Source of the DNA: Candidatus Spongiisociaceae bacterium
Lineage (GTDB): Bacteria; Actinomycetota; Acidimicrobiia; Spongiisociales; Spongiisociaceae
Length of the DNA stretch: 64,000 nucleotides
Assembly (NCBI GenBank): GCA_965202665.1
Contig: OZ241841.1
Location: 1,664,001-1,728,000 of the forward strand
Direction: 5' to 3'
A program made the position numbers and the translations under genes. This document shows positions 30,639 to 46,167 of the stretch, piece by piece (the first letter of the stretch is position 1; every line of letters starts with the position of its first letter). The notes below the pieces were generated by a model. That model was not told the origin of the DNA, searched no databases, and was given only the letters and a program-made list of their open reading frames with translations.

Positions 30639-30688
30639 CATCGTAGCTCGGTAACAGAACCGATGCAGATTTGCAAAGGAGGAACGTA

Positions 30689-31471
30689 ATGGCAGAGCCC
30701 TTGTCTCTACCCGAGCCCTTTCAGGAGAAACTCCCACGATCGCCATTGCGCCTCGTGGTGTGCCAAGTGCGCCACGAGCGGATCCTCGCTGTCGCCGACG
30801 TGAGCCGGGCGTTGGAGGTGCATAAAGCAGTTCGGGACACCTTCCCCAGTATGGAAGAGTTTACCGAAGAAAAGGTTGATATGGTCGTGGGTGTAGGTAG
30901 CAGTGAGGTGAAGCGGGCGGAACCGCAACCAGGATGGAGATTTCAGTCCGAGGACAAAAAATGGACTGCGGTTATCAGTCAATCATCGTTCAGTGTGGAG
31001 ACATTAGACTATGATAGATGGGCAGAGTTTGAGGAGAGTCTTGTTAGGCTAGCCCGCGTATTTGAACGTACGTTCTCACCAAAACTTGAAAATCGATTAG
31101 GCCTACGAATGGTTGACCATATTGAATACCCTTATCCAAGTACGCCGGAAGGGTTCCGCGGTCTGATTGTCGACGAGATACTTGGCCCTATTGTCAACAG
31201 GGATTTTTCGGATTCGATTAGAGTAACCCAGAGCCTTGTTGAACTGGAGGGGCCTGGTGGTGCCACAGTAAATCTGCAACACGGTTGCCAGCGTTTTGAT
31301 GAAACCTATAGCTATGTTCTTGATCATGACTGTTTTCGTCAAATTGGTAGACCATTCAACGTGGACGAAATTTTGGAAACGGCAAATATATTCCATGACT
31401 TAGCCAAGCAAGTCTTCAGGGCTGCAATAACTGATGATTTATATAACAATTTCAGAAAGGATGAAAAATGA
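30689..31471 (+). CDS. TIGR04255-like family protein
   Basis: SD AGGAGG, ATG at 30689. LPRSPLRLVVCQVRH, GWRFQS, YDRWAEF, RLGLRMVDHI, YVLDHDCF and FRAAITD match the pattern of this family. Confidence 0.75.
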   Translation: MAEPLSLPEPFQEKLPRSPLRLVVCQVRHERILAVADVSRALEVHKAVRDTFPSMEEFTEEKVDMVVGVGSSEVKRAEPQPGWRFQSEDKKWTAVISQSSFSVETLDYDRWAEFEESLVRLARVFERTFSPKLENRLGLRMVDHIEYPYPSTPEGFRGLIVDEILGPIVNRDFSDSIRVTQSLVELEGPGGATVNLQHGCQRFDETYSYVLDHDCFRQIGRPFNVDEILETANIFHDLAKQVFRAAITDDLYNNFRKDEK

Positions 31472-32187
31472 CTATCACATTTTCGGCTTCTAGAATAGTG
31501 TCTGATACCAATTATCTTTTTGGTATACCCTATACTATACTATCGGAAGGCCTGTGGGAAGATACTGGTTCTGATTTTGCAAAGACAGAGTATATTTCCC
31601 AAGCCATAACTGTTTCAGTTACTGTTTCGTTTGAGGTATCCAAGTATCATCGTTGGACGAAGAGTTGGCGAGACGAACTCAGCTTAGATGCTAAGAATAA
31701 ACTAAACGAAGAGGCCTTAAAAGCAGTTGAAGAGTTAAAATTACTATTAAAAATCTCAGAAAAAAATTTGGCAAAGTTAGTGGATATTTCGCGTAATAGT
31801 TTTCGCAATTGGCGTAATGGACAAGGCGCATATCCAAGTACTACTAGTAAATTATTTCAAATATTGCATTTGATTTCCGCTCTAAAGCTTGTTATGAGTC
31901 AAAGACAGATGCTTGCCTGGTTGAACGAGCCAGATAATAAGAATCCTTCTTTCACCAGGTTGGATATACTATCTCAGCCAGATGGGCCTGCTTTAGTTTC
32001 ACAACAGGCATCTCACATCCTGTTTTCACCTCCGCCAGGCTCTTTGCCATCACCAGATGAACTTCGTAAGGAACTGGAACGTCTTGATTTGGAAGAGCAG
32101 GGATGGGTGGAGGAATACGGGGAGGTTCCCCGCCGGTATTCTGCTCGTCCGAGACGGCAACGCCCTGATGGGAATGCGAGCAAATGA
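31468..32187 (+). CDS. Xre-type HTH protein resembling Xre/MbcA/ParS antitoxins, with N- and C-terminal extensions
   Basis: ISEKNLAKLVDISRNSFRNWRNG (HTH), then MLAWLNEP...TRLDIL (MbcA/ParS C-terminal-like). ATGA overlaps with both neighbours. Confidence 0.6.
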   Translation: MTITFSASRIVSDTNYLFGIPYTILSEGLWEDTGSDFAKTEYISQAITVSVTVSFEVSKYHRWTKSWRDELSLDAKNKLNEEALKAVEELKLLLKISEKNLAKLVDISRNSFRNWRNGQGAYPSTTSKLFQILHLISALKLVMSQRQMLAWLNEPDNKNPSFTRLDILSQPDGPALVSQQASHILFSPPPGSLPSPDELRKELERLDLEEQGWVEEYGEVPRRYSARPRRQRPDGNASK

Positions 32188-33119
32188 TTTTCGCAGGCAT
32201 CCCGCGTACGAGAGGTGAATGGCCTGAAGGTGTGTTGGAGCACCTAGGTTCCTTCCGGCAGGGTGATGTTGTTGAAGGTTTTCCTATGTCTTATCTTGGG
32301 AACCCGGATGTTCCCGTCCATGCGCAAACAGCGGCATATCTCGGCAAAGGTCCGGGAACGATCGAATTTGAGGAGGAGTTTCCGTATGGGATGATAACGA
32401 CGCAGACTTGTGATATTATAGAGGAGGATAGTAAACAACCATCCCGGCCGTGGGTGCAAATGGTACCTGTTTACGATGGAGAGCATAAACACGAACCAAC
32501 CACAGGTTCGACAAAACGACCTTCCTATATTCCTAGCAATTACCGAAGGTCTATAACGGAAGGCGGAGGCCCTCAGTATTTACTACGTTTGCAAGATTTT
32601 CCCCGGGAAGGGTTTTGGGTTGCTGATCTGCGTTTGAGCATTTCCGTAGATAAGGGATGGTTGCTGGGACGCGATCCTATCAGGGTTTTTGGATCTGAGG
32701 AAAGTCGCAGGATAGTCGGTAGCAGATTAGCGATGCTCGTAGACCGCCCAGCATTCGACGGAAAGTTTGAGCGGGCGGTAAGGAGACCATTAGCAAAAGA
32801 ACTAGCTTCTCTAGAGAACACTCTACTTGGACAAGATATTTATCAGCAAGTGGCAGAATTTAGGATAAGGGCTGATGACAATATTAATATGGAGAGAGTT
32901 GAGATATGGGTTTTTTCTGATTCGCCTTTGTCTGAAAATGTGCGAAGGTGGTTCGATGAACAGGCGGACCAGTGGAGGAGAAGGGCAGGTGAGGAGGATC
33001 TTGTTCTTCTCCCAACACAATATAGTCAGCTTGACGAAGTTAGTGCCAAAGAGTATCGTTCGCTAACCATGATGTCTTTACTTGATTTAACGCCCAATCC
33101 GCCCTGGTACCAAAACTGA
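32184..33119 (+). CDS. Hypothetical protein with QGD...TQTCD motif (putative PemK/MazF-like toxin)
   Basis: FRQGDVV...GMITTQTCDI...VQMVPV resembles the RGD...VVS..N...VVP layout of PemK-fold proteins. The assignment is tentative. Confidence 0.5.
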   Translation: MIFAGIPRTRGEWPEGVLEHLGSFRQGDVVEGFPMSYLGNPDVPVHAQTAAYLGKGPGTIEFEEEFPYGMITTQTCDIIEEDSKQPSRPWVQMVPVYDGEHKHEPTTGSTKRPSYIPSNYRRSITEGGGPQYLLRLQDFPREGFWVADLRLSISVDKGWLLGRDPIRVFGSEESRRIVGSRLAMLVDRPAFDGKFERAVRRPLAKELASLENTLLGQDIYQQVAEFRIRADDNINMERVEIWVFSDSPLSENVRRWFDEQADQWRRRAGEEDLVLLPTQYSQLDEVSAKEYRSLTMMSLLDLTPNPPWYQN

Positions 33120-34122: not shown

Positions 34123-34440
34123 TTAGGCGACCGCCCAGCGGAGTTTCTGCCACCAGTCGGTGCCCTGCGGACCCGCCCCGATGCTCACCACCGCCCCGTC
34201 GGAGCACAGCACTTCGGCCACCGCCGCATCCCCCTGGGCGGACAGGGACAGCATCTCGCACCCCACGAACCGTTCCAGCCCGTAGGAGTGCAGGTTCTGC
34301 CCGATGTCCTCCAGCCAAGCCTGCAACACCACGGCTGCCCCCACGCTTTTCGCATCCCGCGCCTCCCCCAGCGGGTGATACCACAACGGCTCAAAGGCAT
34401 CCTCATCAAAGATAACCTGCCCAATCGTAAGGTATTGCAC
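34123..34440 (-). CDS. Hypothetical protein
   Basis: GTG start with SD GAGGGAGGG; 105 aa; no recognised motif. Confidence 0.5.
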   Translation of the reverse strand: MQYLTIGQVIFDEDAFEPLWYHPLGEARDAKSVGAAVVLQAWLEDIGQNLHSYGLERFVGCEMLSLSAQGDAAVAEVLCSDGAVVSIGAGPQGTDWWQKLRWAVA

Positions 34441-34608
34441 GATGTTGTCCCTCCCTCTGGCTGAACTTGCGCGTCCTGTCGGGTGATACTATAGTAGCAG
34501 GTATAACGGAGCAGGGAAAGAAAGGATTAGACGAGGGTGGGTCCCTCAGGGTGCGTGAAACATTATTTATACTGTGACGCGGACCCTATATGCTAAAAAG
34601 GAGAAATA

Positions 34609-35169
34609 ATGGAACAAAAGTCTAGGTGGCATGTTTGGTTGGGTGTTATTGTTATGATAGTACTGTTGGGTATCGTAACGTTATTCATCATTATTGTCAC
34701 CAAAAATTTTCAACTAGAAACCCTACTTGTTTTTTTTGCGGGTTCGTTTCCTTCTCTGATATACTGGTCAGCTCAAAGACGTAAGGAAAAACAAGAAAGA
34801 GAAAATTGGATTTTACGAGATAAGAAAGCTTATCTTATAGAATTAGTAAGTATATTTGATTCGTTTATCCAAGATAAAGGTAGTGATGAAGCAAAACAGA
34901 GAAAATTATTAAAAAGATTCAAGTCTTTTCGACCTGCTCTTTTGATATGGGGGTCGCCTCCGGTGATCAAAGTGTGGAATGAACAAAAAGATATTTCTGG
35001 TGATTCTATGGAGGGTATCCGGCAGGCAGAAAAATTATTTAGAGCAATTCGGAAAGAATTAGATCACGATGATTCTCAATTACCACCTGGCGCGATTGTA
35101 GCAACACTTGTAAAACCTGAGGAAAAGAAAAAAGTTTACGAAGCTTGTAAAGATGAAAAAAATCATTAG
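34609..35169 (+). CDS. AT-rich hypothetical membrane protein (two N-terminal TM helices)
   Basis: SD AAGGAG, hydrophobic N-terminus and charged helical C-terminus; strongly AT-rich. Confidence 0.75.
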   Translation: MEQKSRWHVWLGVIVMIVLLGIVTLFIIIVTKNFQLETLLVFFAGSFPSLIYWSAQRRKEKQERENWILRDKKAYLIELVSIFDSFIQDKGSDEAKQRKLLKRFKSFRPALLIWGSPPVIKVWNEQKDISGDSMEGIRQAEKLFRAIRKELDHDDSQLPPGAIVATLVKPEEKKKVYEACKDEKNH

Positions 35170-35180
35170 ATATTGATTTT

Positions 35181-35573
35181 TCAAATGTTTGGTGTGGTGG
35201 CTTTGGATAGTTTTTTGTCTAGGGTGGCTAGTTGGGCTTGGCGGCGGTGGGCGGTTTCCAGGTAGGCGGCGTCGTAGCCGCTTAGGTTGTGTTGGCGGGC
35301 CAAGGCTACTGTGTTGGCGTCATCTTGATCGTGGTCGGTGATTAGGGGGAGGGAGCGGAGGCGGTTGAGGTAGGCCTCGGCGGAACCTGCCTCGATGCGG
35401 CCTTTCCGTTCGGCTCCCACAAGCACGTTGCGTATCTCGTGCCAGAACAGGTCTGGGACTATGGCGGGTTCGCTATATATTCGGGCTATCACCTCGTCTG
35501 CTTCGGCGGTGCCCGGTCGGTCGCGGAAGCACCAGGTGGCTGCTATTGACGCATCAGCAACTATGGTCGTCAG
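35181..35573 (-). CDS. vapC: VapC-family PIN domain toxin
   Basis: Extending the listed ORF upstream gives (L)TTIVADASIAATWCF...WHEIRNVL...LSGYDAAYL...LATLDKKL, with all four PIN acidic residues. The likely start is CTG at 35573, overlapping the res stop (CTGA). Confidence 0.88.
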   Translation of the reverse strand: MTTIVADASIAATWCFRDRPGTAEADEVIARIYSEPAIVPDLFWHEIRNVLVGAERKGRIEAGSAEAYLNRLRSLPLITDHDQDDANTVALARQHNLSGYDAAYLETAHRRQAQLATLDKKLSKATTPNI

Positions 35574-38413
35574 GCACGTCCCTCGTCTCGTGCTTCAAGA
35601 ATTTCTTCTAAAGACATTGTGGTTTCCCGGTTATCGCGTTCGGTGAACATTTCATTTTTGATTATGTCCAAAATCAAAGACCGGAGCGTACCTAACTCGG
35701 GGTGGAACTGGTTTTGGTTTACTCTTATGTATTTCCAGGGCGTATCGGTGGCGGTGCTCACCTTACGGCACCAGTCTTGCATCGCGGCGTCTTTTTGTTC
35801 TGTTCCCTCCCAGACTCGCCCTTTGGTTTCGATAATCCAGTTCAACTCGCCTGCTTCCGTATCTTGGACGACCACCCAATCCGGATGGTAGAAGCCGATG
35901 GCTCCGCTCGGTTTCAGATAATTTACCCGGAAGGCGGTTCCAGACCCGCCCTGCTCTGTTGTCCCAAGTGCGGCGAAGCGCAGAACATCCTCTGCCTGGT
36001 CAAGAAACTCCGCAAACCTACGCTCAAAAGGGTTGTAGGTGGCTACAAAATTGAATATTGTTTTTCTCGCTTCTAAAAGAGGTAGATCTCGTCTCCAGCT
36101 GAAAGATGGGGTGTCGGAGAGGTGATTATCTAGATTCTCGAATTCAATGCGACGACGCTCTACGGTCAGCGTGCCTATTTGAGAAGCCAAATATTTCGAT
36201 ATAGCTTCTTGTAATTCTGACCTGGACAAGTGGGAACTAGTGTTTTGATCGTTCAGATCGATCGTTCTGCCAAAGCAACGTTCTCTAACATAATCCTGTA
36301 CTGTTGGATATAATTCGTGGAACTGACCGCTCAAACCCGTTTGTTTAGCAACCTTTTGTGTAATACTTGATAGAAGTTCTTTTACAGAAACGGTGGATTC
36401 CACGGCTATATTTGCTTGGTGAACCTCGGTTTCAGTGGTGGCAAACTCCATTCGCAATCTTATTCGGTAGCGTTCGTCCAAATCTTCCTGTTGAAAGATG
36501 GGATCGAGTAAAGTTAGATCCAGGTTGGAAAGGTCTCGTAGATTATGATACATATCCGGTTTAGTTATAGGAATGTTTATATCATATTCCATCTTCTCTT
36601 GTAATGGTGCTATTTTCACTGGAAGGGGCGGGGGTTTTTTAGTAACGGTTACGCTCACTCCCTCGGTCTCTAGTTGTTCGCGTAAGAATCTGAGCAAATT
36701 TGGCGTACCTAAAACTTCTAATGTTTGCGTGCGATCGGGGCCTATCTGGGGCATCAACCGGAGGCCCCGACCTATCACCTGCTCTGGTAATATTTCAGCT
36801 TTGGCTGTGAAAGGTCGCAGACCGAGAACCACGGACACATTTCTTACATCCCATCCTTCGCGTAACATCATAACGCTTACGATAACCTTTATTTTGTTTG
36901 TGTCCTTATCAATATCGCGAGCCGCCTGACGGGCCTTATCAACATCTCCTTTACGTACCTCTCCAGTGTTATCAGTGTGGATAATCAACACTTCTGACTC
37001 TTTGAATCCATATTCAGGGCTAGAATACAGTGCTTGGCCTATTGCATCTGCGTAGGCGTTTTTCTCGGCCATGATGAACAAAACTGGTCTTACATTCAAG
37101 GCATTGTATGACTGGTAATGTTCTTTCCAGCGTTCAGTAGCACTTCTCAGCCAGTGGCCGTATTTTTCTACAACATCTTCTTTTGTTACTCTAGTGGGTT
37201 CGTGGGCGGGTTTTTCAGGACTGTCCTGATCCACTATTATCGGGGCTTTTACTATTCTGTCCTCCACGGCTTGGGCGAGAGGGTAGTCACAGACGGTCCA
37301 AGGAAAGAACATACCGTTTTGGTCTTTGGGCGTGGCGGAAAAATCCAGCCAAAGACTAACACCGTTTGGTAGTGCTTGGTTAATGGAAAGAAGAGATCTG
37401 CTCCAAGCCAAGTCTTCGTCATGAACATGATGGGCTTCATCGTTGATAATAACAAGGTCATTTAGCAACTTTATTCGTTCCATCATAGAACGTTGGCCGG
37501 AGGTAGCGATACCCGATGCGGGCTTGCCAAGTAATGCTTCTACGGCGTTGCTTGGAGTCCACTCCTGGTCACGCGACTCATAGAGTTGATGAATGTTGGT
37601 CAGGAAGAGATTACCGGAAGGATCGGGTTCGGTGGACTCTCCACGTAGAATGACCCTTTGTGAGAATACCCTTTTTAGTTCCGGTGGTATCAAAGGTAAC
37701 TCGTGAAATATTTGGTTGTTGGCAAAATCTTTTTCCAGTCTTTGATACACGATGACATTTGGGGCTACTATTAGAAAGTTAGTGGAAAGATTGGAGTCGG
37801 GCACCAGACGGCTGTGGAGATGAGACCAAACTATAGTCATAGCCATCACCCAAGTTTTTCCCGAACCCGTCGCCATTTTGAAAGCAAAACGACGTAAGTC
37901 TTTAGGTGGTAAATCTTGTGCCCCAAAATCGCTGCGTTCTGGTATGTAGCGGCGGACTTGTCGTTTCCCATCCGTAGTAGTTTGGAAAGATAAATTGCTT
38001 TCAGTGAGAGTATCCATATAAAAGGTGTGGTATTTTTGTATCAGATTCTTTGCATCGCGTTGGTTTGCTATTTCCACGAGCCAGGCTAAAGTGTCGATAG
38101 CCTCGCGTTGGCAAAAGTGATAGCGGAAAGGAACTTCAAAATTTTGCACTTCGTGGTCTTCCTCGAACCAATATTCAAACAGACGTTTGGTTACATCGGA
38201 GGCTCCCTGGTAGCCGCTACTGCGCCAAGCATCCACCGCCTCACGGATTTTGGGAACTAAAAAGATAGGGCTAGGTCGACGCCCGGAGGTTTCCTCGCGC
38301 CAACCTGTTGACGCTGTTTCGTCTTTGACCAGGTAGGAAACAGGCTCAACCCAAGGAAGACGACCTTGGATCCCCGGCAGTTGCTTGTCGTAGGGAATTA
38401 CTGGTTCAGACAT
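35570..38413 (-). CDS. res: Type III restriction endonuclease subunit (SF2 helicase + PD-(D/E)XK) with a C-terminal antitoxin-like tail
   Basis: KMATGSGKT, INDEAHH, DFSATP, MLREGWD, EQVIGRGLR, YHPDW...IIETKG; tail SLEEILEARDEGRA. Confidence 0.9.
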   Translation of the reverse strand: MSEPVIPYDKQLPGIQGRLPWVEPVSYLVKDETASTGWREETSGRRPSPIFLVPKIREAVDAWRSSGYQGASDVTKRLFEYWFEEDHEVQNFEVPFRYHFCQREAIDTLAWLVEIANQRDAKNLIQKYHTFYMDTLTESNLSFQTTTDGKRQVRRYIPERSDFGAQDLPPKDLRRFAFKMATGSGKTWVMAMTIVWSHLHSRLVPDSNLSTNFLIVAPNVIVYQRLEKDFANNQIFHELPLIPPELKRVFSQRVILRGESTEPDPSGNLFLTNIHQLYESRDQEWTPSNAVEALLGKPASGIATSGQRSMMERIKLLNDLVIINDEAHHVHDEDLAWSRSLLSINQALPNGVSLWLDFSATPKDQNGMFFPWTVCDYPLAQAVEDRIVKAPIIVDQDSPEKPAHEPTRVTKEDVVEKYGHWLRSATERWKEHYQSYNALNVRPVLFIMAEKNAYADAIGQALYSSPEYGFKESEVLIIHTDNTGEVRKGDVDKARQAARDIDKDTNKIKVIVSVMMLREGWDVRNVSVVLGLRPFTAKAEILPEQVIGRGLRLMPQIGPDRTQTLEVLGTPNLLRFLREQLETEGVSVTVTKKPPPLPVKIAPLQEKMEYDINIPITKPDMYHNLRDLSNLDLTLLDPIFQQEDLDERYRIRLRMEFATTETEVHQANIAVESTVSVKELLSSITQKVAKQTGLSGQFHELYPTVQDYVRERCFGRTIDLNDQNTSSHLSRSELQEAISKYLASQIGTLTVERRRIEFENLDNHLSDTPSFSWRRDLPLLEARKTIFNFVATYNPFERRFAEFLDQAEDVLRFAALGTTEQGGSGTAFRVNYLKPSGAIGFYHPDWVVVQDTEAGELNWIIETKGRVWEGTEQKDAAMQDWCRKVSTATDTPWKYIRVNQNQFHPELGTLRSLILDIIKNEMFTERDNRETTMSLEEILEARDEGRA

Positions 38414-40292
38414 TAACCGACCTCAATGTCAAAACCCTGAGTAGTATCGTTACCAAAAACATCTATCACTTTGACCAGAATACGATATACACCAGGGGTC
38501 TCGTATGTGTGGGTGTCTGTTTCGAGGCGGAGGGTTCGGTCCTTACGGGTCCGGTAATCCACCCATCCTTGTATAAAGGTGTCATTTTGGAAGTTCCAAT
38601 CGACAGACCAGTAGTCAATGTAATCTGACCATTCCTTTATTTTACCCCGTATATCATCAGGGATGAGCTCCGAATTTGGGATGACGAAATCCTTCAAGAT
38701 TATCTTTATAGAAAGAACATCGGATTTTTGGATATCGGTTTCAAGATATGCTAATTCAAAGAATTGTATATCGTCTTTGTCAACGGCTTGTTGTTCCATA
38801 ATCTCACGCGGTATCTGGAATAGTAATAATTTGATTCCTTTTTCTTTAGCCACACTGTGCATGAGTCCCCCCCCCGTATATTGTTATTAGGTCCGGCCAG
38901 TCCCATTTCCCACTCCCATCCCAAAACATGAAGCTCTTGTTGGTTTAAGTGAGCACATTCATTGAGTGCTTGATCTATTTCGGTTATAGTGATGGGAGCA
39001 TCAACTGACCCAATGTAAACTAATGCTTTATCTTTCTTGCCATGTAGGCACTCTAAGCCAGGAACAGGTTGCGCTCCATACAATTTCATCACAAACGAAT
39101 AGTATTCGTATATACGATGTTCAATAACTATCGGATTCCTTGACTCATAAAAGGCAGAATCTTGCCAGTATTGTCGTTCGTATTTGCCGAGATTAAGTAT
39201 TTCAAAGGGTTTACATTCTTCAATACCTAGTAACCGCTTTCGGGTAATATGAATACTCCAGCGTCCAAGATCGCAACCAATCCATCTTCTGTTTAGTTTT
39301 TCCGATACCGCGAGTGTGGTGCCTGCGCCGCAAAAAAAATCAGCAATAAGATCATCAGGATTTGATGACGCTTTTATTATCCGTGCTAACACACTTTCGT
39401 TCTTTTGAGTTTGGTAGCCTGTTTTTTCTTGGGAAAAACTCTTGATCTGAATAGAGTCTAGTGATTGATTTCCTTTTAAGGCGAATTCATGAGAATTGGC
39501 ATTCCAAACATCCTCAATAGGGTATCCGTTGCCTTTGGTTTGATCGTTTCCTCTACGTTGGTAATCATCAGAGTAAGGTATGTATTCTTTGTTGAATTTA
39601 AAGTAACCAGGTGTCTTTACATAAAAGAGAATTGTATCGTGATTACGAATCCAGTTTTTGGCTCTAGATTTATAACCAGATATCCAACCTATCCTCCATA
39701 TTATTTCCCTTTGAAAACTGCGCATTCCAAATATTTCATCCATCATAACCTTTACATAGTGACCTACGTTGGCATCAAGATGAACATATATTGCCCCACT
39801 ATCTTTTAGTAGTTCTCGCATTATAGATAGCCGTGATCTCACCATATCAAGATAGCTCTCTATACCCTCCTTCCAAGTATCTCTATAAGCTTTTTCCTCG
39901 ATAATAGAAGGTTCTTTTGTTGTTTGTATATCCGTATCGCCCAGTTCTGCTTTAAAAGAAAAATCCAAGCCTGTGGCGAATGGAGGATCGATATATATGA
40001 GATCAATTTTGCCAGCAAATCTTTCCAGTAGCGAGCTCATTACTAGCAGGTTGTCGCCCCAGATTAGTTTGTTTTTCCAGCCTTCTTCGAAGGTGTCGCC
40101 TTCGTTGCCTTGGTAGACATCGAATAGGGACATCCCTTTGGTTTGCTGTGTTTCGCGGGTGGCGCGGCTTTCGTTGACGGTCTCTATGACCTGGAAGGGC
40201 AGGCTGACGCGGGGCACCTCTTTCAGGGTGCCGTCTTCGTTGTATTTACCGGGCCAGACCAGCTCGGTTTTGGCGATTTCTATTTTGGTCAT
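38413..40292 (-). pseudogene. mod: Type III DNA methyltransferase, out of frame at a G9 tract (phase-OFF allele, mutation or sequencing error)
   Basis: ATG at 40292 overlaps the helicase stop. Motifs NKLIWGDN, IYIDPPF, YQTQKNE, DFFCGAGTT, GWEWEMG. Continues in another frame (MHSVAKEKGIKLLLFQIPRE...YIDYWSVDW...KVIDVFGND) across C9 at 38867-75. Confidence 0.88.
38867..38875 (-). repeat. Poly-G (G9) tract at the mod frameshift
   Basis: The coding strand reads ATA C-GGGGGGGGG-ACTC ATG. G7 or G10 would restore the frame. Confidence 0.85.
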
Positions 40293-43150
40293 CCTGTTTC
40301 TCCGATGATGCCGTCCGTACGGCACAGCCTCCGCAGGTCGCATTCTTGGCAGATATCCGCTTCGGGCGGGGCGGACACTGCGAACTCGCCCGCCTGGATG
40401 CGCCGCACGGTGGCGTCGAAATGGCGGCCGGCCTCCTCTACCCGCTCCGGTCTGTATGGTAGCGCCATCAGCGCATCCTGCTTGCGTTGCTCCGAAGTCC
40501 AGTAGAGCAACAGTCGATCCACCCGCTTGCCCCGCCGTTGCTCCAAGATGTGGGCGTAGGTGCAGAGTTGCCGTTCGTAGGCCTCTATCAGATTCGGGTT
40601 GTCTTTGGGGCGGGGCGAAGTCTTGAAATCCAGCAGCTCCAATTTGCCGTCCCCGCCCATCAACAGGTCCACCTTGCCGGACAGGATGTAGTCGTCCTTC
40701 TCCAAAGACACATCCACCTCGGTTTCGATGATGCGGCCCATCTCGTCTTGGTTTTGCCGGAAATAGTTCATCACCTGTCGGAACGCGGCCTCTTTGACCA
40801 CCCCGCTGATGGGCCGCCGGTCGGACAGGCTCAGGACTCGGAAGTTGTCTTCGAACAGGTCGCTGATGCGGTTCTCGTCGAGGGAGTCCAGTTGGCCGTC
40901 CATGGCGAAGCGGTGGATGCCCTCGATGGACTGGTGGACGAGCTGGCCGAAAAAGAAGACCGCCGACCGGGACGGGGTGAAGTCGTATTCCCGGAAGAAC
41001 TGATACTGGCGCGGGCAGGTTTCGTAGACTTTGAGGTCGCCGGTGAAACTGTAGGTTTTTTTGACGGGCGTCCGTTCATGCGAGGCAAAACGCTGGGCGG
41101 CCAGCTTATCCTTCTCCGCGTACGGCCACTGGGGGAGGCCCTCCCAGATGGCGGCGAAGTGTTTCTTGGGCGTTTTGTGGGCGGTTAGGACCAGCACATT
41201 CTGCGCTCTGGAAAAGGCCACGTAGTGTTGGCGCATCCGGTCAAAATTGGTTATGCGGTCTTCGGGTTCAAAAGGCGGACGGTGATAGAACGGGGCCAAG
41301 TTGCGGTCAATTTGCTTGCCGGTGGGAATCTGCGCCGACAGGGAGCCGACCGCCACCACCGGAAACTCCAAGCCCTTGGACTGATGGATGGTCATCACTT
41401 GCACGTAACCTTTCGGGAACGGCTGATCCGGGTCCTCGTATTCGTTGATGCCTCCCGAATGAAGCAGGCGCAGGAAACTGTTGAAAAAACTGCGGGGCAG
41501 AGACTCCCGGTTGTCGTAGGTGATAACCGGGTAGCCGTAGAAAACCTGAAAAGCGTTGAGAAGCTGGGAGAAGATGGCCAGGTTGCAGGCCGTGTTTTCA
41601 TCTTTGGCCGCGCTCCGGAACGGTTCCAAGGCGAGCAGGCGGTAGAAGTAGTCGGTAGGACGCAGGTCGAGGGTCTGCCTTTTCTCCAGGGCGGCGATTT
41701 CGTCCGTCCACCGGCGGAGGGCCCGGGCGAGCGGGCTGGACTTTTCGAACTGCTGACAGAGTTGAAGGATGGCCTCATCCGCATATCGGGCCAGTTTTTT
41801 GAGCGCCCATCCCGAAACCGGATCCCGTTGGTCGCCGTACCAGCCGAGCAGGATTGCGTAACAGGCCACCAGGTTGCGGATGGCGGGAATATCAAAGAAG
41901 CCCCGGGCGCGGGGGCAGAAAGCGGGGATGCCCCTGGCTTGCAAGGCTTCCAGATAGTGACCGCTGTGCTTCTCGCGGACGCTGTGCAACAGGAGGGCCA
42001 CCTGGCTGTAATCCTCAATCACCTGATTTTTTTTCAGAAACTCCACCAGATCGGCGAATCGTTCAGCCTCGTCCTGGACGCCGGTTCCCCATATGCTGAT
42101 GACGGCCGGGTAGTTGGAGCGGTCTCCGTTCGGGTTGGCGACGATGGTTTTGTCGTAACGGAAGGAGTGGCCGGCCGAGTTGGACCAGTCCGCCGAGGAC
42201 ATCCAATCGTCGTAGCGTTCCACTATGGCGGGATGCGAGCGGTAGTTGGAAGTCAACTTGATGACCCGGCAGTCGGACACCCGCTGGGGGAACTCCAAGA
42301 TGTTGCGCACCGTGGCCCCCCGGAAGCGGTATATGCTCTGGTCCTCGTCACCCACCACGCACAGGTTCTGGTCGGGCCCCGCCAGTTTGAGGAGCAACTG
42401 TTCCTGGATGAAGTTGGTGTCCTGGTATTCGTCCACTAGCAGGTAGCGGAGATGGGGGGAAACCGAGTCGGCGGCGGCTGGGTCGTTCAGCAGGTCGTAG
42501 AAATGTCGTTGCAGGTGGGCGAAATCGACGCGGTTTTTGTTCAACAGGGCCTTTTGATAACTGAGGTAGGCGGAGCCGATGGCCCTGATGAAAGAGTCGT
42601 CCGAGTTCGTCATCAGGTTCGGATCGACCAGTTCTTCGGTTATTTTGTCAAAATACCCTCTCGCCCTTTCGATGGCCGTCCAGCGGGTTGTCCAACGGGT
42701 CAGATAGCGGCCGTCCTCATCTTTTTCTCCGATGATGTCGTCGAAATGTTCGAAGATGAACAACAGTTGGGTCAGCTCGTCCAAGGTTTGGTAGCCGTGC
42801 CCGAGGTTCGTCCGGTGGCGGTGACGGGTCAGGGCCCGGTTGCAAAATCCGTGGATGGTGGAGATGGTCAGGTCGGACAGGTCCTCCTTGTAACCCAGCT
42901 GGCTGGCGTAGGCGGCCAGACGGTCCCGCATTTCGTAGGCGGCTTTCTCGGTGAAAGTGCACAACGCCATCTCTTTCGGTTCCGCCTTCTTCAACAGCAA
43001 CAGGTTCAAGGCCCGCAGGACGATGCTGTAGGTTTTGCCGGAGCCGGGGCCGGCTATCACCAGGAGCGGGCCGTCCAGATGGCCGATGACCTCCTGCTGG
43101 CTGGGGTTTAGTTGCAGGTTGTGCTCCACAATTGCGGGAGCGATGGTCAT
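40289..43150 (-). CDS. UvrD/REP-family helicase fused to a C-terminal PD-(D/E)XK nuclease with an Fe-S-type Cys cluster
   Basis: IAGPGSGKT, LVDEYQD, VGDEDQSIYRFRGA, NYRS, MTIHQSKGLEF, YVAFSRA; C-terminal CPRQY...GKVDL...LDFKT...QLCTY...CQECDLRRLC. Confidence 0.92.
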   Translation of the reverse strand: MTIAPAIVEHNLQLNPSQQEVIGHLDGPLLVIAGPGSGKTYSIVLRALNLLLLKKAEPKEMALCTFTEKAAYEMRDRLAAYASQLGYKEDLSDLTISTIHGFCNRALTRHRHRTNLGHGYQTLDELTQLLFIFEHFDDIIGEKDEDGRYLTRWTTRWTAIERARGYFDKITEELVDPNLMTNSDDSFIRAIGSAYLSYQKALLNKNRVDFAHLQRHFYDLLNDPAAADSVSPHLRYLLVDEYQDTNFIQEQLLLKLAGPDQNLCVVGDEDQSIYRFRGATVRNILEFPQRVSDCRVIKLTSNYRSHPAIVERYDDWMSSADWSNSAGHSFRYDKTIVANPNGDRSNYPAVISIWGTGVQDEAERFADLVEFLKKNQVIEDYSQVALLLHSVREKHSGHYLEALQARGIPAFCPRARGFFDIPAIRNLVACYAILLGWYGDQRDPVSGWALKKLARYADEAILQLCQQFEKSSPLARALRRWTDEIAALEKRQTLDLRPTDYFYRLLALEPFRSAAKDENTACNLAIFSQLLNAFQVFYGYPVITYDNRESLPRSFFNSFLRLLHSGGINEYEDPDQPFPKGYVQVMTIHQSKGLEFPVVAVGSLSAQIPTGKQIDRNLAPFYHRPPFEPEDRITNFDRMRQHYVAFSRAQNVLVLTAHKTPKKHFAAIWEGLPQWPYAEKDKLAAQRFASHERTPVKKTYSFTGDLKVYETCPRQYQFFREYDFTPSRSAVFFFGQLVHQSIEGIHRFAMDGQLDSLDENRISDLFEDNFRVLSLSDRRPISGVVKEAAFRQVMNYFRQNQDEMGRIIETEVDVSLEKDDYILSGKVDLLMGGDGKLELLDFKTSPRPKDNPNLIEAYERQLCTYAHILEQRRGKRVDRLLLYWTSEQRKQDALMALPYRPERVEEAGRHFDATVRRIQAGEFAVSAPPEADICQECDLRRLCRTDGIIGETG

Positions 43151-43872
43151 AGCAGTCCTGCTTTTCTGAAGCTGAAAGTTTCCCGGTGGGACACCACGAG
43201 GTGATCCGCCACCCGCAGGCTAATGGTTTCGGCGGCCAGCACGATGGCGCGGGTGATTACTTTGTCATGTTCGGTCGGCTCCGTTTGGCCGTTCGGATGG
43301 TTGTGGGCGAGAAGCAGGGCCGCCGCCTGGTTGCGAACGGCGGCTTCCACGACCCGCCGGGGATACACGGCTACCCGGTCGATGGCCCCCTCCTGCAGGA
43401 TTTCCACGCCATCGGGGAGGAGGCGGTATCCGGAATCCAAATAGGCAACCGCGAACACTTCGTGTCTGAGGCCGCCGATTCGCATCCGCCAAAAGCTGCT
43501 GATTTTCTCCGGTTCGAGCAGGATGTCGGTGCCTTCCGCCGTGTGTTGCAGGTACAGGTTGGCCGTCTCCCGGATGATTTTCACGGCGACTGCGGCCGGT
43601 TCGCTCAGACCGGCTGACTGCAGTTCGGCGGGGGAGGCGTCCAGAACGTTGCGCAGGCAGCCGAAGCGCCGGAGCAGATCGCGGGCGGACGCCCCGTTGT
43701 CGGCGACGGGGGAGGCCAGGTTCAGCAGCAATTCGATCACCTCGTGGTCGGCGAGCCCCGCCAAGCCGGTTTTGCGAAACCGCCGGCGGAGCGGGTGGCC
43801 TTTGTCGAGAGGACGCGGCGGATCCGCCCGTAGGAGGGCTTCGTTCTGCGGACGCAGTGCGGGCGCGGTCAT
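43147..43872 (-). CDS. radC: RadC-family (JAB/MPN) protein
   Basis: LADHEVIELLL, E-x-F...VYPRRVV...AHNHPNG...PTEHD...VADHLVV; ends SFRKAGLL. Confidence 0.9.
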   Translation of the reverse strand: MTAPALRPQNEALLRADPPRPLDKGHPLRRRFRKTGLAGLADHEVIELLLNLASPVADNGASARDLLRRFGCLRNVLDASPAELQSAGLSEPAAVAVKIIRETANLYLQHTAEGTDILLEPEKISSFWRMRIGGLRHEVFAVAYLDSGYRLLPDGVEILQEGAIDRVAVYPRRVVEAAVRNQAAALLLAHNHPNGQTEPTEHDKVITRAIVLAAETISLRVADHLVVSHRETFSFRKAGLL

Positions 43873-44057
43873 GGTCTTTGGCGAGTCGCCTCCAGCGTGC
43901 TGATGCTTTCCACTTCCAATATGCACAATTTTTCGCCGTGCGACAAGGGGTATGTTTTTCCCATCTCCGCAACCGTCGAGATCCCATAGAAGCGCGGGAG
44001 GCGAAACCCCCAGGTCTTCGATTGTTTCGGATGGGCGGTGGTCGCTCCAGCTGAAAG

Positions 44058-45550
44058 TTATTCCCGTGTTTGCTGAAGGTAATCCTGGCCTTTTGTCGTT
44101 AGGCGGTAGCGTTGCTTGCTGCTTTGCGGTTTTTCCGGGATGGTCATTTCGATCAGGCCGGATTTCAAGGCGGGCAGCAGGTAGGAAGTCCGAAAATGGC
44201 CTTTATGCTTGAGGTTCAGGATTTTTCGCAGTTGCTCGCTGGTTGCTTCTTCGGCTATAGCGGCCAGTAACTCGGCGACTTGGACGGTGACTTGGTCGGT
44301 GACTTGTACGGTTTGGAGACTTACTTGGTCGGTGACTTGGTCGGTGGGGGGTTGGACTTGGTCGGTTTTGAGGGTGACTTGGTCGGTTTCTTGGTCGGTT
44401 TGGGGTTCGACTTGGTCGGTGACTTGTACGGTTTGGGGACTTACTTGGTCGGTTTCTTGGTCGGTGGGGGGTTGGACTTGGTCGGTTTTGAGGGTGACTT
44501 GGTCGGTGACTTGGTCGGTTTGGGGACTTACTTGGTCGGTGACTTGGTCGGTTTGGGGAGCCTCTTGGTCGGTAACTTGGTCGGTTTTCGGACTTACTTG
44601 GTCGGTGGGGGCTTCGACTTGGTCGGTGGGGGCATTTGTCCGGACTTCCGGGTTGGGGTGGAAGGTGATGGTTATGAAGTGGTCGGCTTCGAATTCGGGT
44701 TCCGGGCAGTCCATCTCTTTGGCCTCCTCCCGGATGCGGCGGATGCCGGTGCCGGCCTTCTCGATGAAGTCGATGCGGTGGAGCAGGTCGGCGATCAGGG
44801 GATTCCGCCGCCTGCTGGTGCGGCCGATGTTGGTGAGGGTGACGCCCGGGGGCAGTTTGCCGGGGCTGATCACCTCGATCCGGTCGACGTACACTTCCAC
44901 GAAGACGTTCGACCCGGTGAAATACCAGTCCCGGTGCATGACCGCGTTGGTGACGGCCTCGCGCAGCGCCTTCATGGGGTATTCCTTGATGTTTTCCCGT
45001 TGCAGGCCCTCAATCCGGTATTTGGTGCGGGTGTTGCGGTCGATGAAAGCCATGGCGTTTTCGATGTCGGCCACCACGCCCCCCTCCAGGTCGCTCCGAT
45101 CCAGGATGTGCACCTTGTCCGTACCCTGCCCCATCAGGCAGGTGATGTACGCATCGGGGAAGAATTGGCGCACGTTTTTGGCGAAGAACAGCACGCCCGC
45201 GTTGCGGAGCCGCAACTGGCCGCCCGTCCGCTCCGCCACCCCGATGTTGACCAGCATTTCCTCGGTGGAGGCGAGGTCGGTGATGCGGGAGCGCCGGAAC
45301 CAGTCGTCGAATTTGGCCTGGTCGAAGTCCTCCGGGTATTTGAATCGGGGGCAAAAAGAGCGGTCGAATTCCAGGGCCCCCTCCGTTTGGAAGAATCCGA
45401 GAATTTCGCTCCGGCTGAGTTTTTGCGTCATCGCTCCCTGCCTGGCGAAGAACCCGTTCCGGCATTGCACCGGTTTGACCTCGCCTTCGTTTACATGGAC
45501 TGCCAACACTTTACCCACCGACTCCTCCCACACCTGCACCGGCGGGTTTC
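44058..45550 (-). pseudogene. N-terminally truncated Schlafen/AlbA_2 + HATPase_c_4 (RecG-C-like) + wHTH protein with TDQV repeat insert
   Basis: YPMKALREAVTNAVMHRD, DRIEVISPG, RNPLIADLL, IEKAGTGI; C-terminal YLLPALKSGLIEMTIPEKPQSSKQRYRLT. The AlbA EFK/AFAN-GG motifs are missing, and the frame runs into the antisense of the next gene. Confidence 0.75.
44270..44640 (-). repeat. Coding tandem repeat of ~21 T(D/V)Q(V/E) units (12- and 21-nt units, 120-bp higher-order copy)
   Basis: ACTTGGTCGGT recurs on the plus strand; 44281-44400 is near-identical to 44401-44520. Confidence 0.9.
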
Positions 45551-45585
45551 CCGCGCCGGGGGGAGGGGCGTGGTTAAATAGGGTT

Positions 45586-46167
45586 ATGGACAGGGCGCAG
45601 TTGGCTGATTTGCTCACTTTTTCCCGGTTGCTGGCCGGGCCGGTTCTGGTGGCTTTGCTGGCCGGACGGCGGTTGGAGGCGGCGGCCCTGTTTCTCACTT
45701 TGGCCTGGTTCACCGATTTCTTCGACGGGCGGATGGCCCGCTCCTCCGACCGGCCCACCCGGCTCAACGGATGGGATCTGCGGGCGGACGCCTGGCTGGC
45801 CGCCGGGCTGGGAATCGGCTTGGGACTGGGCGGCTACCTCACCTGGTGGCTGGCCGGCCCGCTGTCCCTGTTCGTGTTCGCCGGGGCCGTCCTGCTCGCC
45901 AACCCCGCCCCGGTGATGGTCGGTATCGGGGCCCTCACCGGACTCACGTTGCTCACTTTCGTGACGGAGGACAGCTGGTGGTGGGTTCCGGCGGGGGCCC
46001 TCCTCATCCTGTTGGTTCCCTCCCGCAAACGGTTCCTGCACACGATCCTCCCCGCCCTGTGGGCCGGAGTGGTCAGCCTCACCACCGGCGAAGATCCGGA
46101 GGCCGAAACCCGCGGGCGCAGGCTCACCGTCGACGAATGGGCCCCCGGGCCGGAACCCGACCTCTGA
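45586..46167 (+). CDS. CDP-alcohol phosphatidyltransferase family protein
   Basis: ADLLTFSRL...TDFFDGRMAR...G-WDLRAD signature; hydrophobic. Confidence 0.85.
   Translation: MDRAQLADLLTFSRLLAGPVLVALLAGRRLEAAALFLTLAWFTDFFDGRMARSSDRPTRLNGWDLRADAWLAAGLGIGLGLGGYLTWWLAGPLSLFVFAGAVLLANPAPVMVGIGALTGLTLLTFVTEDSWWWVPAGALLILLVPSRKRFLHTILPALWAGVVSLTTGEDPEAETRGRRLTVDEWAPGPEPDL

What the first reader, a model, noticed from the sequence alone, without database searches (positions are those of the whole stretch)
35181..35690. Type III restriction subunit carries a fused antitoxin-like tail and is coupled to an orphan VapC toxin (candidate R-M 'guard' system)
Seen: Res continues ~35 aa past its nuclease domain and ends MFTERDNRETTMSLEEILEARDEGRA*. 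Its stop overlaps (CTGA) the start of an intact PIN toxin with all four acidic residues, and no separate antitoxin gene lies between them. Knowledge: a '(S/T)xEEILxARxEGR' ending resembles the C-terminal neutralising helix of Phd/VapB antitoxins that precede VapCs of the DAS..AW..D type. PrrC/EcoprrI is the precedent for a toxin held in check by an R-M enzyme, but that is a type I system with an anticodon nuclease. Inference: Res itself may neutralise VapC, so phage anti-restriction proteins or loss of Res would release an RNase. That would give abortive infection and addiction built into a type III R-M enzyme.
Basis: partly seen in the sequence, partly recalled or inferred. Interest (0 to 1): 0.85.

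Follow-up and report, generated by a model that had tools for sequence, protein, structure and literature searches.

The report
Restriction enzyme carrying an antitoxin tail
A DNA-cutting restriction subunit ends in a short peptide that matches the toxin-binding end of an antitoxin and is followed at once by a VapC toxin gene, here and in 35 other bacterial genomes examined, so the restriction enzyme itself likely holds the toxin in check; in this genome the toxin gene has lost its start codon.

Summary
On the minus strand a type III-like Res (35570-38413, 947 aa) ends ...TTMSLEEILEARDEGRA*. A complete PIN/VapC frame follows at once (35181-35570), with no antitoxin gene between. The proposed CTG is not the ancestral start. 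Relatives have TGATG at the junction; this window has TGACG, so ATG has become ACG.

The tail is not a one-off. Of 80 Res relatives fetched, 35 carry it. 32 of those 35 have a PIN gene directly downstream and the other 3 have vapC remnants. None of the 45 tail-less Res has one. The carriers span seven phyla, mostly sponge-symbiont MAGs. More distant VapC relatives are paired with free 79-88 aa Phd/YefM antitoxins, most ending ...MSxEEILAARHEGHRF*. The tail aligns to that end (hhalign E 1.1e-5).

Best reading: Res has replaced the antitoxin's DNA-binding domain and likely neutralises VapC through the tail.

The local copy looks switched off or decaying. vapC lacks its start codon, sister strains carry an 18-nt deletion that removes the first catalytic Asp, and mod is out of frame at a hypervariable poly-G tract.

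I found no description of this in print or in this scan's earlier notes.

The parts
35181..35570 (-). vapC (PIN-domain toxin gene). The frame and catalytic residues are intact, but the ancestral start codon ATG is ACG here (35568-35570).
   Evidence: Pfam PF01850 E 5.5e-12. Junction alignment against three relatives. Invariant acidic residues in alignment A4. Other strains read ATG but carry an 18-nt deletion at 35543-35560 that removes VADASI.
35573..35623 (-). Antitoxin-like tail of Res (TTMSLEEILEARDEGRA). It is likely the VapC-binding, neutralising element.
   Evidence: hhalign of 36 tails against 24 free Phd/YefM antitoxins: probability 81.7%, E 1.1e-5, 19 columns at both C-termini. Low non-synonymous change with saturated synonymous change at E41, E48, G49 and R50 of A3. 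Predicted as a short terminal helix.
35624..35707 (-). Extra helix and linker (about 28 aa, ...TLRSLILDIIKNEMFTERDNRE) between the nuclease fold and the tail. Most tail-less Res lack it.
   Evidence: C-termini of the 80 loci. AlphaFold model: helix at residues 293-311 and a loop at 312-317 of the 330-aa C-terminal piece.
35570..38413 (-). res, the type III-like restriction subunit (SF2 helicase plus C-terminal PD-(D/E)xK-type nuclease), 947 aa, open.
   Evidence: Pfam ResIII and RE_endonuc. PADLOC REase_III 1.2e-17. NCBIfam NF046055 scores 280 bits, below its cut-off of 800.
38413..40343 (-). mod, a type III methyltransferase, split into two frames (38751-40343 and 38413-38862). Its stop overlaps the res start as TAATG.
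   Evidence: Pfam N6_N4_Mtase 4e-44. PADLOC MTase_III 1e-101. Sequence at the mod-res junction.
38867..38875 (-). Poly-G tract (G9) inside mod. G10 would restore the frame. The tract length differs between strains and relatives.
   Evidence: Sequence. Alignment with relatives: G13 in G004, G12 at another site in G001, and an interrupted in-frame tract in G021. The X6 contig has 8 extra bases here, and the X3 and X5 contigs break here.
40289..43150 (-). UvrD-type helicase with a PD-(D/E)xK/Cas4-like nuclease domain, directly upstream. By ORF coordinates its stop overlaps the likely mod start.
   Evidence: Pfam UvrD-helicase 7.7e-65 and PDDEXK_1 2.2e-25. Same synteny in G001, G021 and G004.
43147..43926 (-). 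RadC-like JAB-domain gene, first gene of the conserved five-gene string.
   Evidence: Pfam RadC 1.8e-30. Synteny in relatives.

Best explanation
The Res subunit of this type III-like restriction-modification operon carries, fused to its C-terminus, the toxin-binding end of a Phd/YefM-type antitoxin, and it likely serves as the antitoxin of the VapC RNase encoded directly downstream.

Shown here:
- The tail exists and is homologous to the antitoxin end.
- It co-occurs strictly with vapC.
- The stop and start codons overlap (TGATG).
- The arrangement has spread across phyla.

Inferred:
- An ancestral phd-vapC pair sat downstream of res, and the Phd DNA-binding domain was lost, so that Res became the carrier of the linear neutralising peptide.
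- The tail would lie in the VapC active-site groove, as VapB C-termini do, and keep VapC bound to Res and inactive.
- Anything that removes or degrades Res or its tail would free VapC. That would make the cassette addictive, and it could link failure of restriction to growth arrest.

In this window the module is probably silent. The vapC start is ACG and mod is frame-shifted at a poly-G tract.
For: 1. Conserved architecture. Three relatives from the same family (G001, G021 and G004; VapC 78, 64 and 61% identical) have Res with the same tail, followed by vapC with an overlapping ATG.

2. Survey of 80 Res relatives, the best 80 of 210 found. 35 carry the tail. 32 of those 35 have a PIN hit starting at the Res stop. 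The other 3 (L038, L050, L062) have vapC remnants: a few codons, or a gene cut by an IS element. 0 of 45 tail-less Res have a PIN within 1.5 kb downstream, and 39 of those 45 have at least 450 nt to look in.

3. Antitoxin homology.
- VapC relatives at 42-43% identity (L005, L015) have free 85-aa antitoxins. These match Pfam PhdYeFM_antitox at 1e-10 to 5e-12 over residues 1-65 and end ...MTKEEILAARHEGHRF*.
- 208 homologues exist, and the 24 aligned share that end.
- Profile-profile alignment of tails against antitoxins gives E 1.1e-5.
- Three further free antitoxins end ...AMIAEGRR...MLDARHEGHRF and ...SLVEEGRVG.

4. Selection on the protein. pN is 0.30 in the tail, 0.45 in the linker and 0.36 in the Res C-terminal end, with synonymous sites saturated.

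5. Res is kept whole. The frame is open for at least 932 aa in 34 of 34 assessable tail-bearing loci, whereas vapC is damaged in 8 of 36.

6. Co-loss. Where vapC is gone, the tail is degenerate (L038) or lost (L072, L073), and these sit with the tail-bearing rows in the Res tree.

7. No matching free antitoxin in this genome. The only two Phd-like genes match the N-domain only, have other C-termini, and sit beside another PIN gene.

8. Deletion derivatives keep the tail on unrelated N-termini: P0128 (Mod N-terminus plus tail, 93 aa), P0136 (RadC N-terminus plus tail) and P0138 (half a nucleotidyltransferase plus tail).

9. Precedent. A Phd-C linear element moved onto another scaffold (SUMO) still neutralises its toxin (PMC10440598, passages read).
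Against: - No binding, toxicity or neutralisation was tested, and the complex prediction could not be run.
- The homology rests on about 19 residues, at hhalign probability 81.7%.
- The most conserved tail codons (GAR GGN for E-G) also form a Shine-Dalgarno-like GAGG/AAGG about 10 nt before the vapC start. RNA-level and protein-level constraint are therefore confounded at those two positions.
- Co-occurrence is largely one evolutionary event plus inheritance. In the tree the tail label needs only 2-3 changes, so the 32/35 against 0/45 split is not 80 independent trials.
- vapC is damaged in 8 of 36 loci. Within this species two or three different lesions occur, so the toxin is often dispensable or selected against.
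- The DNA around P0128, P0136 and P0138 could not be fetched, so it is unknown whether a vapC follows them.
Confidence: 0.7

Rival explanations
1. Hitch-hiking only. A vapC gene lodged behind res, and the 'tail' is kept because it holds the ribosome-binding site and the coupling signals for vapC translation. In this reading the tail is not a neutralising peptide, and VapC is harmless, weakly expressed or controlled some other way.
For: The conserved E-G codons spell a Shine-Dalgarno-like GAGG/AAGG about 10 nt upstream of the vapC ATG. vapC is damaged in 8 of 36 loci. No binding test was possible.
Against: Residues well upstream of any ribosome-binding site (M/L-S/T-x-x-E-hydrophobic, about 30-45 nt before the ATG) are conserved as amino acids while their codons vary. 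They match the ends of free antitoxins. No matching free antitoxin exists in this genome. The tail decays where vapC is lost.
Confidence: 0.12
2. Docked effector. The tail recruits VapC as an extra, active nuclease subunit of the restriction complex, for example to cut phage RNA or DNA at the site of restriction. It does not inhibit VapC.
For: Tight coupling and strict co-occurrence. VapC-like PIN effectors paired with proteins that are not antitoxins are known in defence, such as HEC-03 (bioRxiv 10.1101/2024.01.29.577857, passages read).
Against: The tail is homologous to the part of the antitoxin that, in solved VapBC complexes, blocks the active site (this point is recalled, not tested here). 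Deletion derivatives keep the tail without Res. That fits a need for neutralisation better than a need for recruitment.
Confidence: 0.1
3. One-off deletion, assembly chimera or mis-join at the Res/vapC junction in this genome.
For: GC content changes across the junction: about 60% in vapC against about 45% in res.
Against: The same junction is found in 35 other genomes from seven phyla and in the best 120 proteins listed, out of 325 matches. Contigs from three other studies' runs span the junction.
Confidence: 0.01

Closest known systems
Phd/YefM-VapC type II toxin-antitoxin pairs (free 79-88 aa antitoxin, most ending ...MSxEEILAARHEGHRF, directly upstream of a PIN toxin)
   Same: The toxin clade is the same: VapC identity is 42-43%. 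The C-terminal antitoxin motif is the same. The stop and start overlap in the same way.
   Different: The Phd/YefM DNA-binding and dimerisation domain is absent. In its place stands a 900-aa helicase-nuclease restriction subunit. The promoter autoregulation expected of a Phd-type antitoxin therefore cannot work the same way.
PrrC-EcoprrI (anticodon nuclease kept latent by a type Ic restriction-modification enzyme; PMC3506569, passages read)
   Same: A toxic RNase is encoded inside a restriction-modification operon, has no antitoxin gene of its own, and is proposed to be held by the restriction enzyme.
   Different: PrrC is a HEPN/ABC-ATPase anticodon nuclease with a type I enzyme, and no antitoxin-derived peptide is involved. 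Here a PIN toxin sits with a type III-like Res, and the link is visible in the sequence as a fused antitoxin end. Activation by phage is shown for PrrC and untested here.
Modular antitoxins with linear neutralising elements on unrelated scaffolds (PanA carrying Phd-C; the SUMO-Phd-C fusion neutralises Doc; PMC10440598, passages read)
   Same: A short C-terminal neutralising element of the Phd type is attached to a globular domain that does not itself neutralise.
   Different: The scaffold there is the small Panacea domain and the toxin is Doc. Here the scaffold is a restriction endonuclease subunit and the toxin is VapC.
PIN genes coupled to type I restriction-modification operons with 'antitoxin elements missing' (PMC5499597, section 17 read)
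   Same: PIN toxins sit in restriction-modification operons without a separate antitoxin gene.
   Different: Those cases are type I, are said not to be conserved between close species, and no fused antitoxin part was reported. That paper states that direct TA-RM interaction 'has not been shown yet'.
Phase-variable type III mod genes ('phasevarions' of Haemophilus, Neisseria and Helicobacter; recalled, no paper read here)
   Same: A homopolymeric tract inside a type III mod gene differs in length between strains and puts the gene out of frame.
   Different: The hosts here are uncultured sponge symbionts. Length variation was seen only in assemblies and contigs, so homopolymer sequencing error is not excluded.

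Membership tests
VapC / PIN-domain type II toxin | PIN domain above the Pfam threshold | tested here: met
   PF01850 E 5.5e-12, 46.8 bits against a cut-off of 23.6
VapC / PIN-domain type II toxin | Conserved acidic active-site residues | tested here: met
   D7, E46, D80, D101 and D119 are invariant in 29 aligned homologues, the window's copy included
VapC / PIN-domain type II toxin | Translatable gene with a start codon | tested here: not met
   The window has ACG where relatives and sister strains have ATG. 28 of 36 loci do have an intact gene with a canonical start.
VapC / PIN-domain type II toxin | Separate cognate antitoxin gene directly upstream | tested here: not met
   Res abuts vapC with no ORF between them
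VapC / PIN-domain type II toxin | Toxicity and RNase activity | not testable with these tools
   Needs expression and an assay
Phd/YefM antitoxin | N-terminal Phd/YefM fold (PF02604) | tested here: not met
   The last 60 aa of Res give no Phd hit. The full-length Res Pfam scan lists ResIII, DEAD, SWI2_SNF2 and RE_endonuc only, with no Phd/YefM hit.
Phd/YefM antitoxin | C-terminal toxin-binding segment matching that of the cognate clade | tested here: met
   hhalign E 1.1e-5, probability 81.7%, 19 columns. Motif M[ST]xEE[IV]xxAR[DH]EG[RH] is seen in both sets.
Phd/YefM antitoxin | Binds and neutralises the toxin | not testable with these tools
Type III restriction-modification (Res + Mod) | Res with an SF2 helicase (ResIII) domain | tested here: met
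   PF04851 63 bits against a cut-off of 22.5. PADLOC REase_III 1.2e-17.
Type III restriction-modification (Res + Mod) | C-terminal endonuclease domain in Res | tested here: inconclusive
   PF19778 scores 20.0 bits, below its cut-off of 23.4. PD...ETK residues are visible and invariant in A5.
Type III restriction-modification (Res + Mod) | Adjacent type III Mod methyltransferase | tested here: met
   PADLOC MTase_III 1e-101 and Pfam N6_N4_Mtase 4e-44. The gene is out of frame at G9 in this window.
BPTD_3080 family restriction endonuclease (NCBIfam NF046055) | Score above the equivalog cut-off | tested here: not met
   280 bits against a cut-off of 800
PrrC/EcoprrI-type restriction-guarded toxin | Toxin gene inside the restriction-modification operon without its own antitoxin gene | tested here: met
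   mod-res-vapC are joined by TAATG and TGA(T/C)G overlaps
PrrC/EcoprrI-type restriction-guarded toxin | HEPN anticodon nuclease with an ABC ATPase domain, and a type I enzyme | tested here: not met
   The toxin is a PIN domain and the enzyme is type III-like
PrrC/EcoprrI-type restriction-guarded toxin | Latent complex released by a phage anti-restriction factor | not testable with these tools
   Needs phage challenge and biochemistry

The most novel reading that the evidence does not exclude
Res is a sensor-antitoxin. While the restriction complex is intact and idle, its tail plugs VapC. When a phage disables, titrates or degrades Res, or when Res is lost with its mobile cassette, VapC is freed and arrests the cell. 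That would be the physical coupling of immunity and suicide predicted in 2012 (PMC3506569), written directly into the sequence of a restriction enzyme and spread by horizontal transfer among sponge symbionts of seven phyla.
Probability: 0.3. Interest if true: 0.85.

Novelty: new variant of a known kind. Interest (0 to 1): 0.75.

Why it matters
It has long been proposed that immunity genes themselves restrain the toxins embedded in their operons (PMC3506569). The PIN-superfamily survey states that direct interaction between TA and R-M systems 'has not been shown yet' (PMC5499597).

Here the proposed contact is readable in the sequence. A recognisable antitoxin end is fused to a restriction subunit, always with the matching toxin downstream, in at least 120 protein clusters. 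That gives a small, well-defined pair for direct testing: about 20-45 aa of tail and a 130-aa toxin.

If the tail neutralises VapC, several things follow:
- Restriction enzymes can act as antitoxins.
- Such cassettes would resist deletion.
- There would be a route by which failure of restriction could trigger growth arrest.

It also shows that antitoxin 'linear motifs' can migrate onto very large, unrelated enzymes. Annotation pipelines miss this: the sources name these proteins only 'type III restriction enzyme' or 'hypothetical protein'.

Tried and rejected
- **Complex prediction (tail alignment A3 plus VapC alignment A4).** Searches came too early. At the queue was still full and the tool said not to try again. 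No complex was folded, so there is no verdict either way.
- **The search for related loci on metagenome contigs.** Alignments A3 and A6 were not conserved enough. A 30-aa query was too short. The 50-aa L021 tail matched 597 patterns, but none was confirmed by tblastn.
- **The DNA search.** A degenerate pattern for the window-type tail found nothing in metagenome contigs.
- **Read laying.** The first try gave no usable answer and the repeat worked.
- **RNA.** No RNA holder is listed for this stretch.
- **Tail against family libraries.** Pfam and NCBIfam on the last 60 aa of Res gave nothing relevant. That is expected, because the Phd/YefM models stop before the toxin-binding end.
- **Promoter scan.** No internal promoter was found for vapC, and the counts were at the level expected from shuffles.
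- **Rejected: CTG as the vapC start.** The register of the relatives puts the start one codon later.
- **Rejected: assembly chimera**.
- **Literature.** Searches found no paper describing an antitoxin element fused to a restriction subunit. Only listings were seen, except for the four papers named in this report, where passages or one section were read. Supplementary Figure S7 of PMC5499597 (PIN genes in type I R-M operons) was not looked at.
Full report
**What is there.** All features lie on the minus strand.
- A 947-aa Res (35570-38413) has a ResIII helicase domain (63 bits) and a weak C-terminal endonuclease match. PADLOC calls it REase_III.
- It ends ...NEMFTERDNRETTMSLEEILEARDEGRA*.
- A PIN frame follows at once and runs to 35181. 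Pfam PIN scores E 5.5e-12, and the domain begins at the fourth residue after the junction. All conserved acidic residues are present.
- No ORF lies between Res and the PIN frame.
- Upstream, mod (PADLOC type III MTase, 1e-101) ends in TAATG, overlapping the res start.
- Before mod come a UvrD-type helicase-nuclease and a RadC-like gene.
- The genome flanking this stretch is 65-75% GC. The res-mod stretch is about 36-57% GC and vapC about 60%.

**The start codon.** In G001, G021 and G004 the Res stop overlaps the vapC ATG by one base (TGATG or TAATG). The window has TGACG in the same register. The ancestral ATG is therefore ACG here, and the next canonical start (GTG at 35492) lies beyond the first catalytic Asp. 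Contigs of other sponge-metagenome runs (X3, X6 and part of X5) read T at that position, which restores ATG. The run identical to the window (X1, probably its source) reads C.

**It is not a one-off.** A search of one genome per species, with the last 330 aa of four Res proteins as query, found 210 relatives, of which the best 80 were kept.
- 35 of the 80 end in the tail and 45 do not.
- I built a PIN profile from six VapCs. It hits a frame starting at the Res stop in 32 of the 35 tail-bearing loci.
- The other three have remnants. L038 keeps nine codons (MALVIRRYG) before a stop, L050 keeps only a short piece (MATVLDRSKQ...), and L062 has a vapC cut short beside a transposase gene.
- None of the 45 tail-less Res has a PIN hit within 1.5 kb. 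39 of those 45 have at least 450 nt of downstream sequence.
- At 28 junctions an intact vapC starts with ATG, GTG or TTG. At 26 of them the start overlaps the Res stop; at two (L032, L036) it begins a few bases after it.
- By record titles the carriers belong to Actinomycetota (Candidatus Spongiisociaceae, the family named for the window's closest relatives, and another Acidimicrobiia MAG), Pseudomonadota, Candidatus Binatota, Acidobacteriota, Gemmatimonadota, Candidatus Latescibacterota and Chloroflexota. Many are chromosome-level MAGs.
- In the large protein collection, 325 proteins match the last 90 aa of Res. All of the best 120 listed carry the tail: 113 by a strict pattern and 7 variants by eye. 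Where a source gives a name at all, it is 'type III restriction enzyme' or 'hypothetical protein'.

**The tail comes from an antitoxin.**
- VapC relatives at 42-43% identity in G013 and G004 sit behind free 85-aa proteins. These are Phd/YefM antitoxins over residues 1-65 (Pfam 1e-10 to 5e-12) and end ...MTKEEILAARHEGHRF*.
- 208 homologues were found. The 24 I aligned share the ending MSxEEILAARHEGHRF.
- Profile-profile comparison of 36 tails with these 24 antitoxins aligns the two C-termini over 19 columns (probability 81.7%, E 1.1e-5).
- I also searched 401 genomes of the same class. Four more had a VapC at E <= 1e-20. Three of these have free Phd-like antitoxins ending ...AMIAEGRR...MLDARHEGHRF and ...SLVEEGRVG. 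For the fourth (L104) my filter showed no antitoxin ORF, and I did not look further.
- The Pfam and NCBIfam Phd models stop before this segment, which explains why the tail itself matches no family.

**Selection and co-loss.**
- Across the 36 tails, synonymous sites are saturated (pS about 0.72). Non-synonymous change is lower in the tail (0.30) than in the linker (0.45) or in the end of the nuclease domain (0.36). E41, E48, G49 and R50 of the alignment are nearly fixed.
- Two of those codons (E-G) also spell a Shine-Dalgarno-like GAGG/AAGG before vapC. At those positions RNA and protein constraint cannot be separated.
- Res frames are open for at least 932 aa in 34 of 34 assessable tail-bearing loci.
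- vapC is damaged in 8 of 36 loci:
  - start codon lost in the window and L034;
  - frameshift in L026, L044 and L093;
  - truncation in L038, L050 and L062.
- Where vapC is gone for longer, the tail is degenerate (L038 ends ARCQDRT) or lost. L072 and L073 group with the tail-bearing rows, and L073 keeps a tail-like ...LTLREQVQWRAAGH....
- In the tree of the Res C-terminal region, 43 tail-less proteins form one well-supported clade (SH-aLRT 99). The 36 tail-bearing ones plus L072 and L073 lie outside it. The label needs 3 changes, or at least 2. One fusion event followed by horizontal spread and a few losses is the simplest reading. For the same reason the co-occurrence counts are not independent trials.

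**Natural deletion derivatives.** A profile of the last 50 aa, run over 1.84 billion representatives, found 20 proteins at E <= 0.001. Most look like C-terminal pieces of Res. Three are small proteins in which the tail hangs on something else:
- P0128 (93 aa): Mod N-terminus (59% identity to the window's Mod, E 3e-20) joined to the last 45 aa of a Res almost identical to the window's.
- P0136 (149 aa): RadC N-terminus (E 2e-13) plus the tail.
- P0138 (80 aa): half of an NTP_transf_2 nucleotidyltransferase (2.9e-10) plus the tail.

They lie on contigs of 2.4-18 kb. This is what one expects if the cassette can only be lost when the tail is kept. However, I could not fetch their DNA to see whether vapC follows, and a protein search can only see in-frame cases.

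**The local copy.** Within this species the toxin is being disabled repeatedly.
- The window's strain has ACG for ATG.
- The strains in X3 and X6 have ATG but lack 18 nt (35543-35560, between two ATAG repeats). That deletion removes VADASI, including the first catalytic Asp.
- One X5 contig appears to skip 35270-35566. This is weak evidence, with only 32 letters on the shorter side of the joint.
- mod carries a G9 tract (38867-38875), and G10 would restore the frame. X6 has eight more bases there, and the X3 and X5 contigs break there. G004 has G13 at the same place and G001 has G12 at another site, both out of frame. G021 has an interrupted, in-frame tract and a 626-aa Mod. This looks like phase variation of a type III mod, but assemblies and contigs cannot exclude homopolymer error.
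- This genome has no free antitoxin with the matching end. Its two Phd-like genes match only the N-domain, end differently and serve another PIN.

**How it most likely works.**
- Shown: the fusion, its homology to the antitoxin end, its strict linkage to vapC and its spread.
- Inferred: the tail binds VapC as the free antitoxin's end would. Res is then the antitoxin and VapC travels bound to it. The AlphaFold model of the Res C-terminal 330 aa (mean pLDDT 73.8) places a long helix, a loop and a short terminal helix (SLEEILEARD) after the nuclease fold. That fits an appended peptide but says nothing about binding.
- Speculative: what frees VapC. Candidates are proteolysis of the tail, loss of the cassette (addiction), or inhibition of Res by phage (guard).

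A published experiment shows that a Phd-C element fused to SUMO still neutralises its toxin (PMC10440598, passages read). A foreign scaffold is therefore no obstacle.

**Comparison with what is known.**
- It works like a Phd-VapC pair and like the modular PanA antitoxins.
- It resembles PrrC-EcoprrI in logic but not in parts (PMC3506569, passages read).
- The PIN survey reports PIN genes without antitoxins in type I operons and says direct TA-RM interaction had not been shown (PMC5499597, section 17 read).
- HEC-03 pairs a VapC-like PIN with an ABC ATPase that 'bears no relation to VapB' (bioRxiv 10.1101/2024.01.29.577857, passages read).
- Six literature searches found no description of an antitoxin element on a restriction subunit.
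- Earlier notes of this scan report other add-ons (LexA-like S24 domains) on type III Res C-termini in other genomes, but not this one.

**Verdict.** The antitoxin-tail reading is well supported by comparative evidence but is untested biochemically. The guard mechanism remains open. I class it as a new variant of known kinds: a modular antitoxin, and a toxin coupled to a restriction-modification system.

Noticed in passing
window 38867-38875 (minus strand), inside mod: A G9 homopolymer puts the type III mod out of frame, and G10 would restore it. Tract length differs in sister strains (8 extra bases in X6, contig breaks in X3 and X5) and in relatives (G13 in G004, G12 at another site in G001). 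This is either a possible phase-variable mod in sponge symbionts or homopolymer sequencing error.
   Followed up: partly
proteins P0128/P0141, P0136, P0138, P0139 (from; no DNA held): Small proteins in which the antitoxin-like tail is joined to the N-terminus of Mod, of RadC or of a nucleotidyltransferase, or to an internally deleted Res. These are apparent deletion derivatives of the cassette that keep the tail.
   Followed up: partly
window 35543-35560 and 35569: Sister strains in other sponge samples have the vapC ATG but lack 18 nt between two ATAG repeats. That removes VADASI, including the first catalytic Asp. It is a second, independent way of disabling the same toxin.
   Followed up: yes
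window 34400-35187: Contigs of other strains diverge from the window just past the vapC stop, with loose ends at 35187. The low-GC stretch holding a 186-aa membrane-like ORF (34609-35169, no family hit) is therefore specific to this strain.
   Followed up: no
window 30671-33119 (plus strand): Three overlapping ORFs of 266, 239 and 311 aa lie at the low-GC island's edge and have no Pfam or PADLOC hit. They may be an unknown three-gene module beside the restriction operon.
   Followed up: partly
window 44058-45767 (minus strand): A 569-aa protein has a long run of TDQV-type short repeats. PADLOC matches models of pAgo-associated proteins (PDLC02394, 1.3e-23). It sits just upstream of the RadC-helicase-mod-res-vapC string.
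   Followed up: no
window 40289-43926; L016, L017, L018: A RadC-like gene and a UvrD/PD-(D/E)xK helicase-nuclease precede mod-res-vapC in all four Spongiisociaceae genomes looked at. They have the higher GC of the host, whereas the restriction genes are low-GC. By ORF coordinates, gene ends overlap along the whole string in the window.
   Followed up: partly
L073 about 3830-5930: A Rhodothermales Res has a degenerate tail-like end (...LTLREQVQWRAAGHNLKLDVDE) and no vapC. A 594-aa protein with a P-loop-like N-terminus follows it instead.
   Followed up: no
L104 (G362) 1477-1935: A VapC of the same clade has no antitoxin ORF that my filter showed upstream. The neighbouring gene is a 464-aa enzyme-like ORF.
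   Followed up: no
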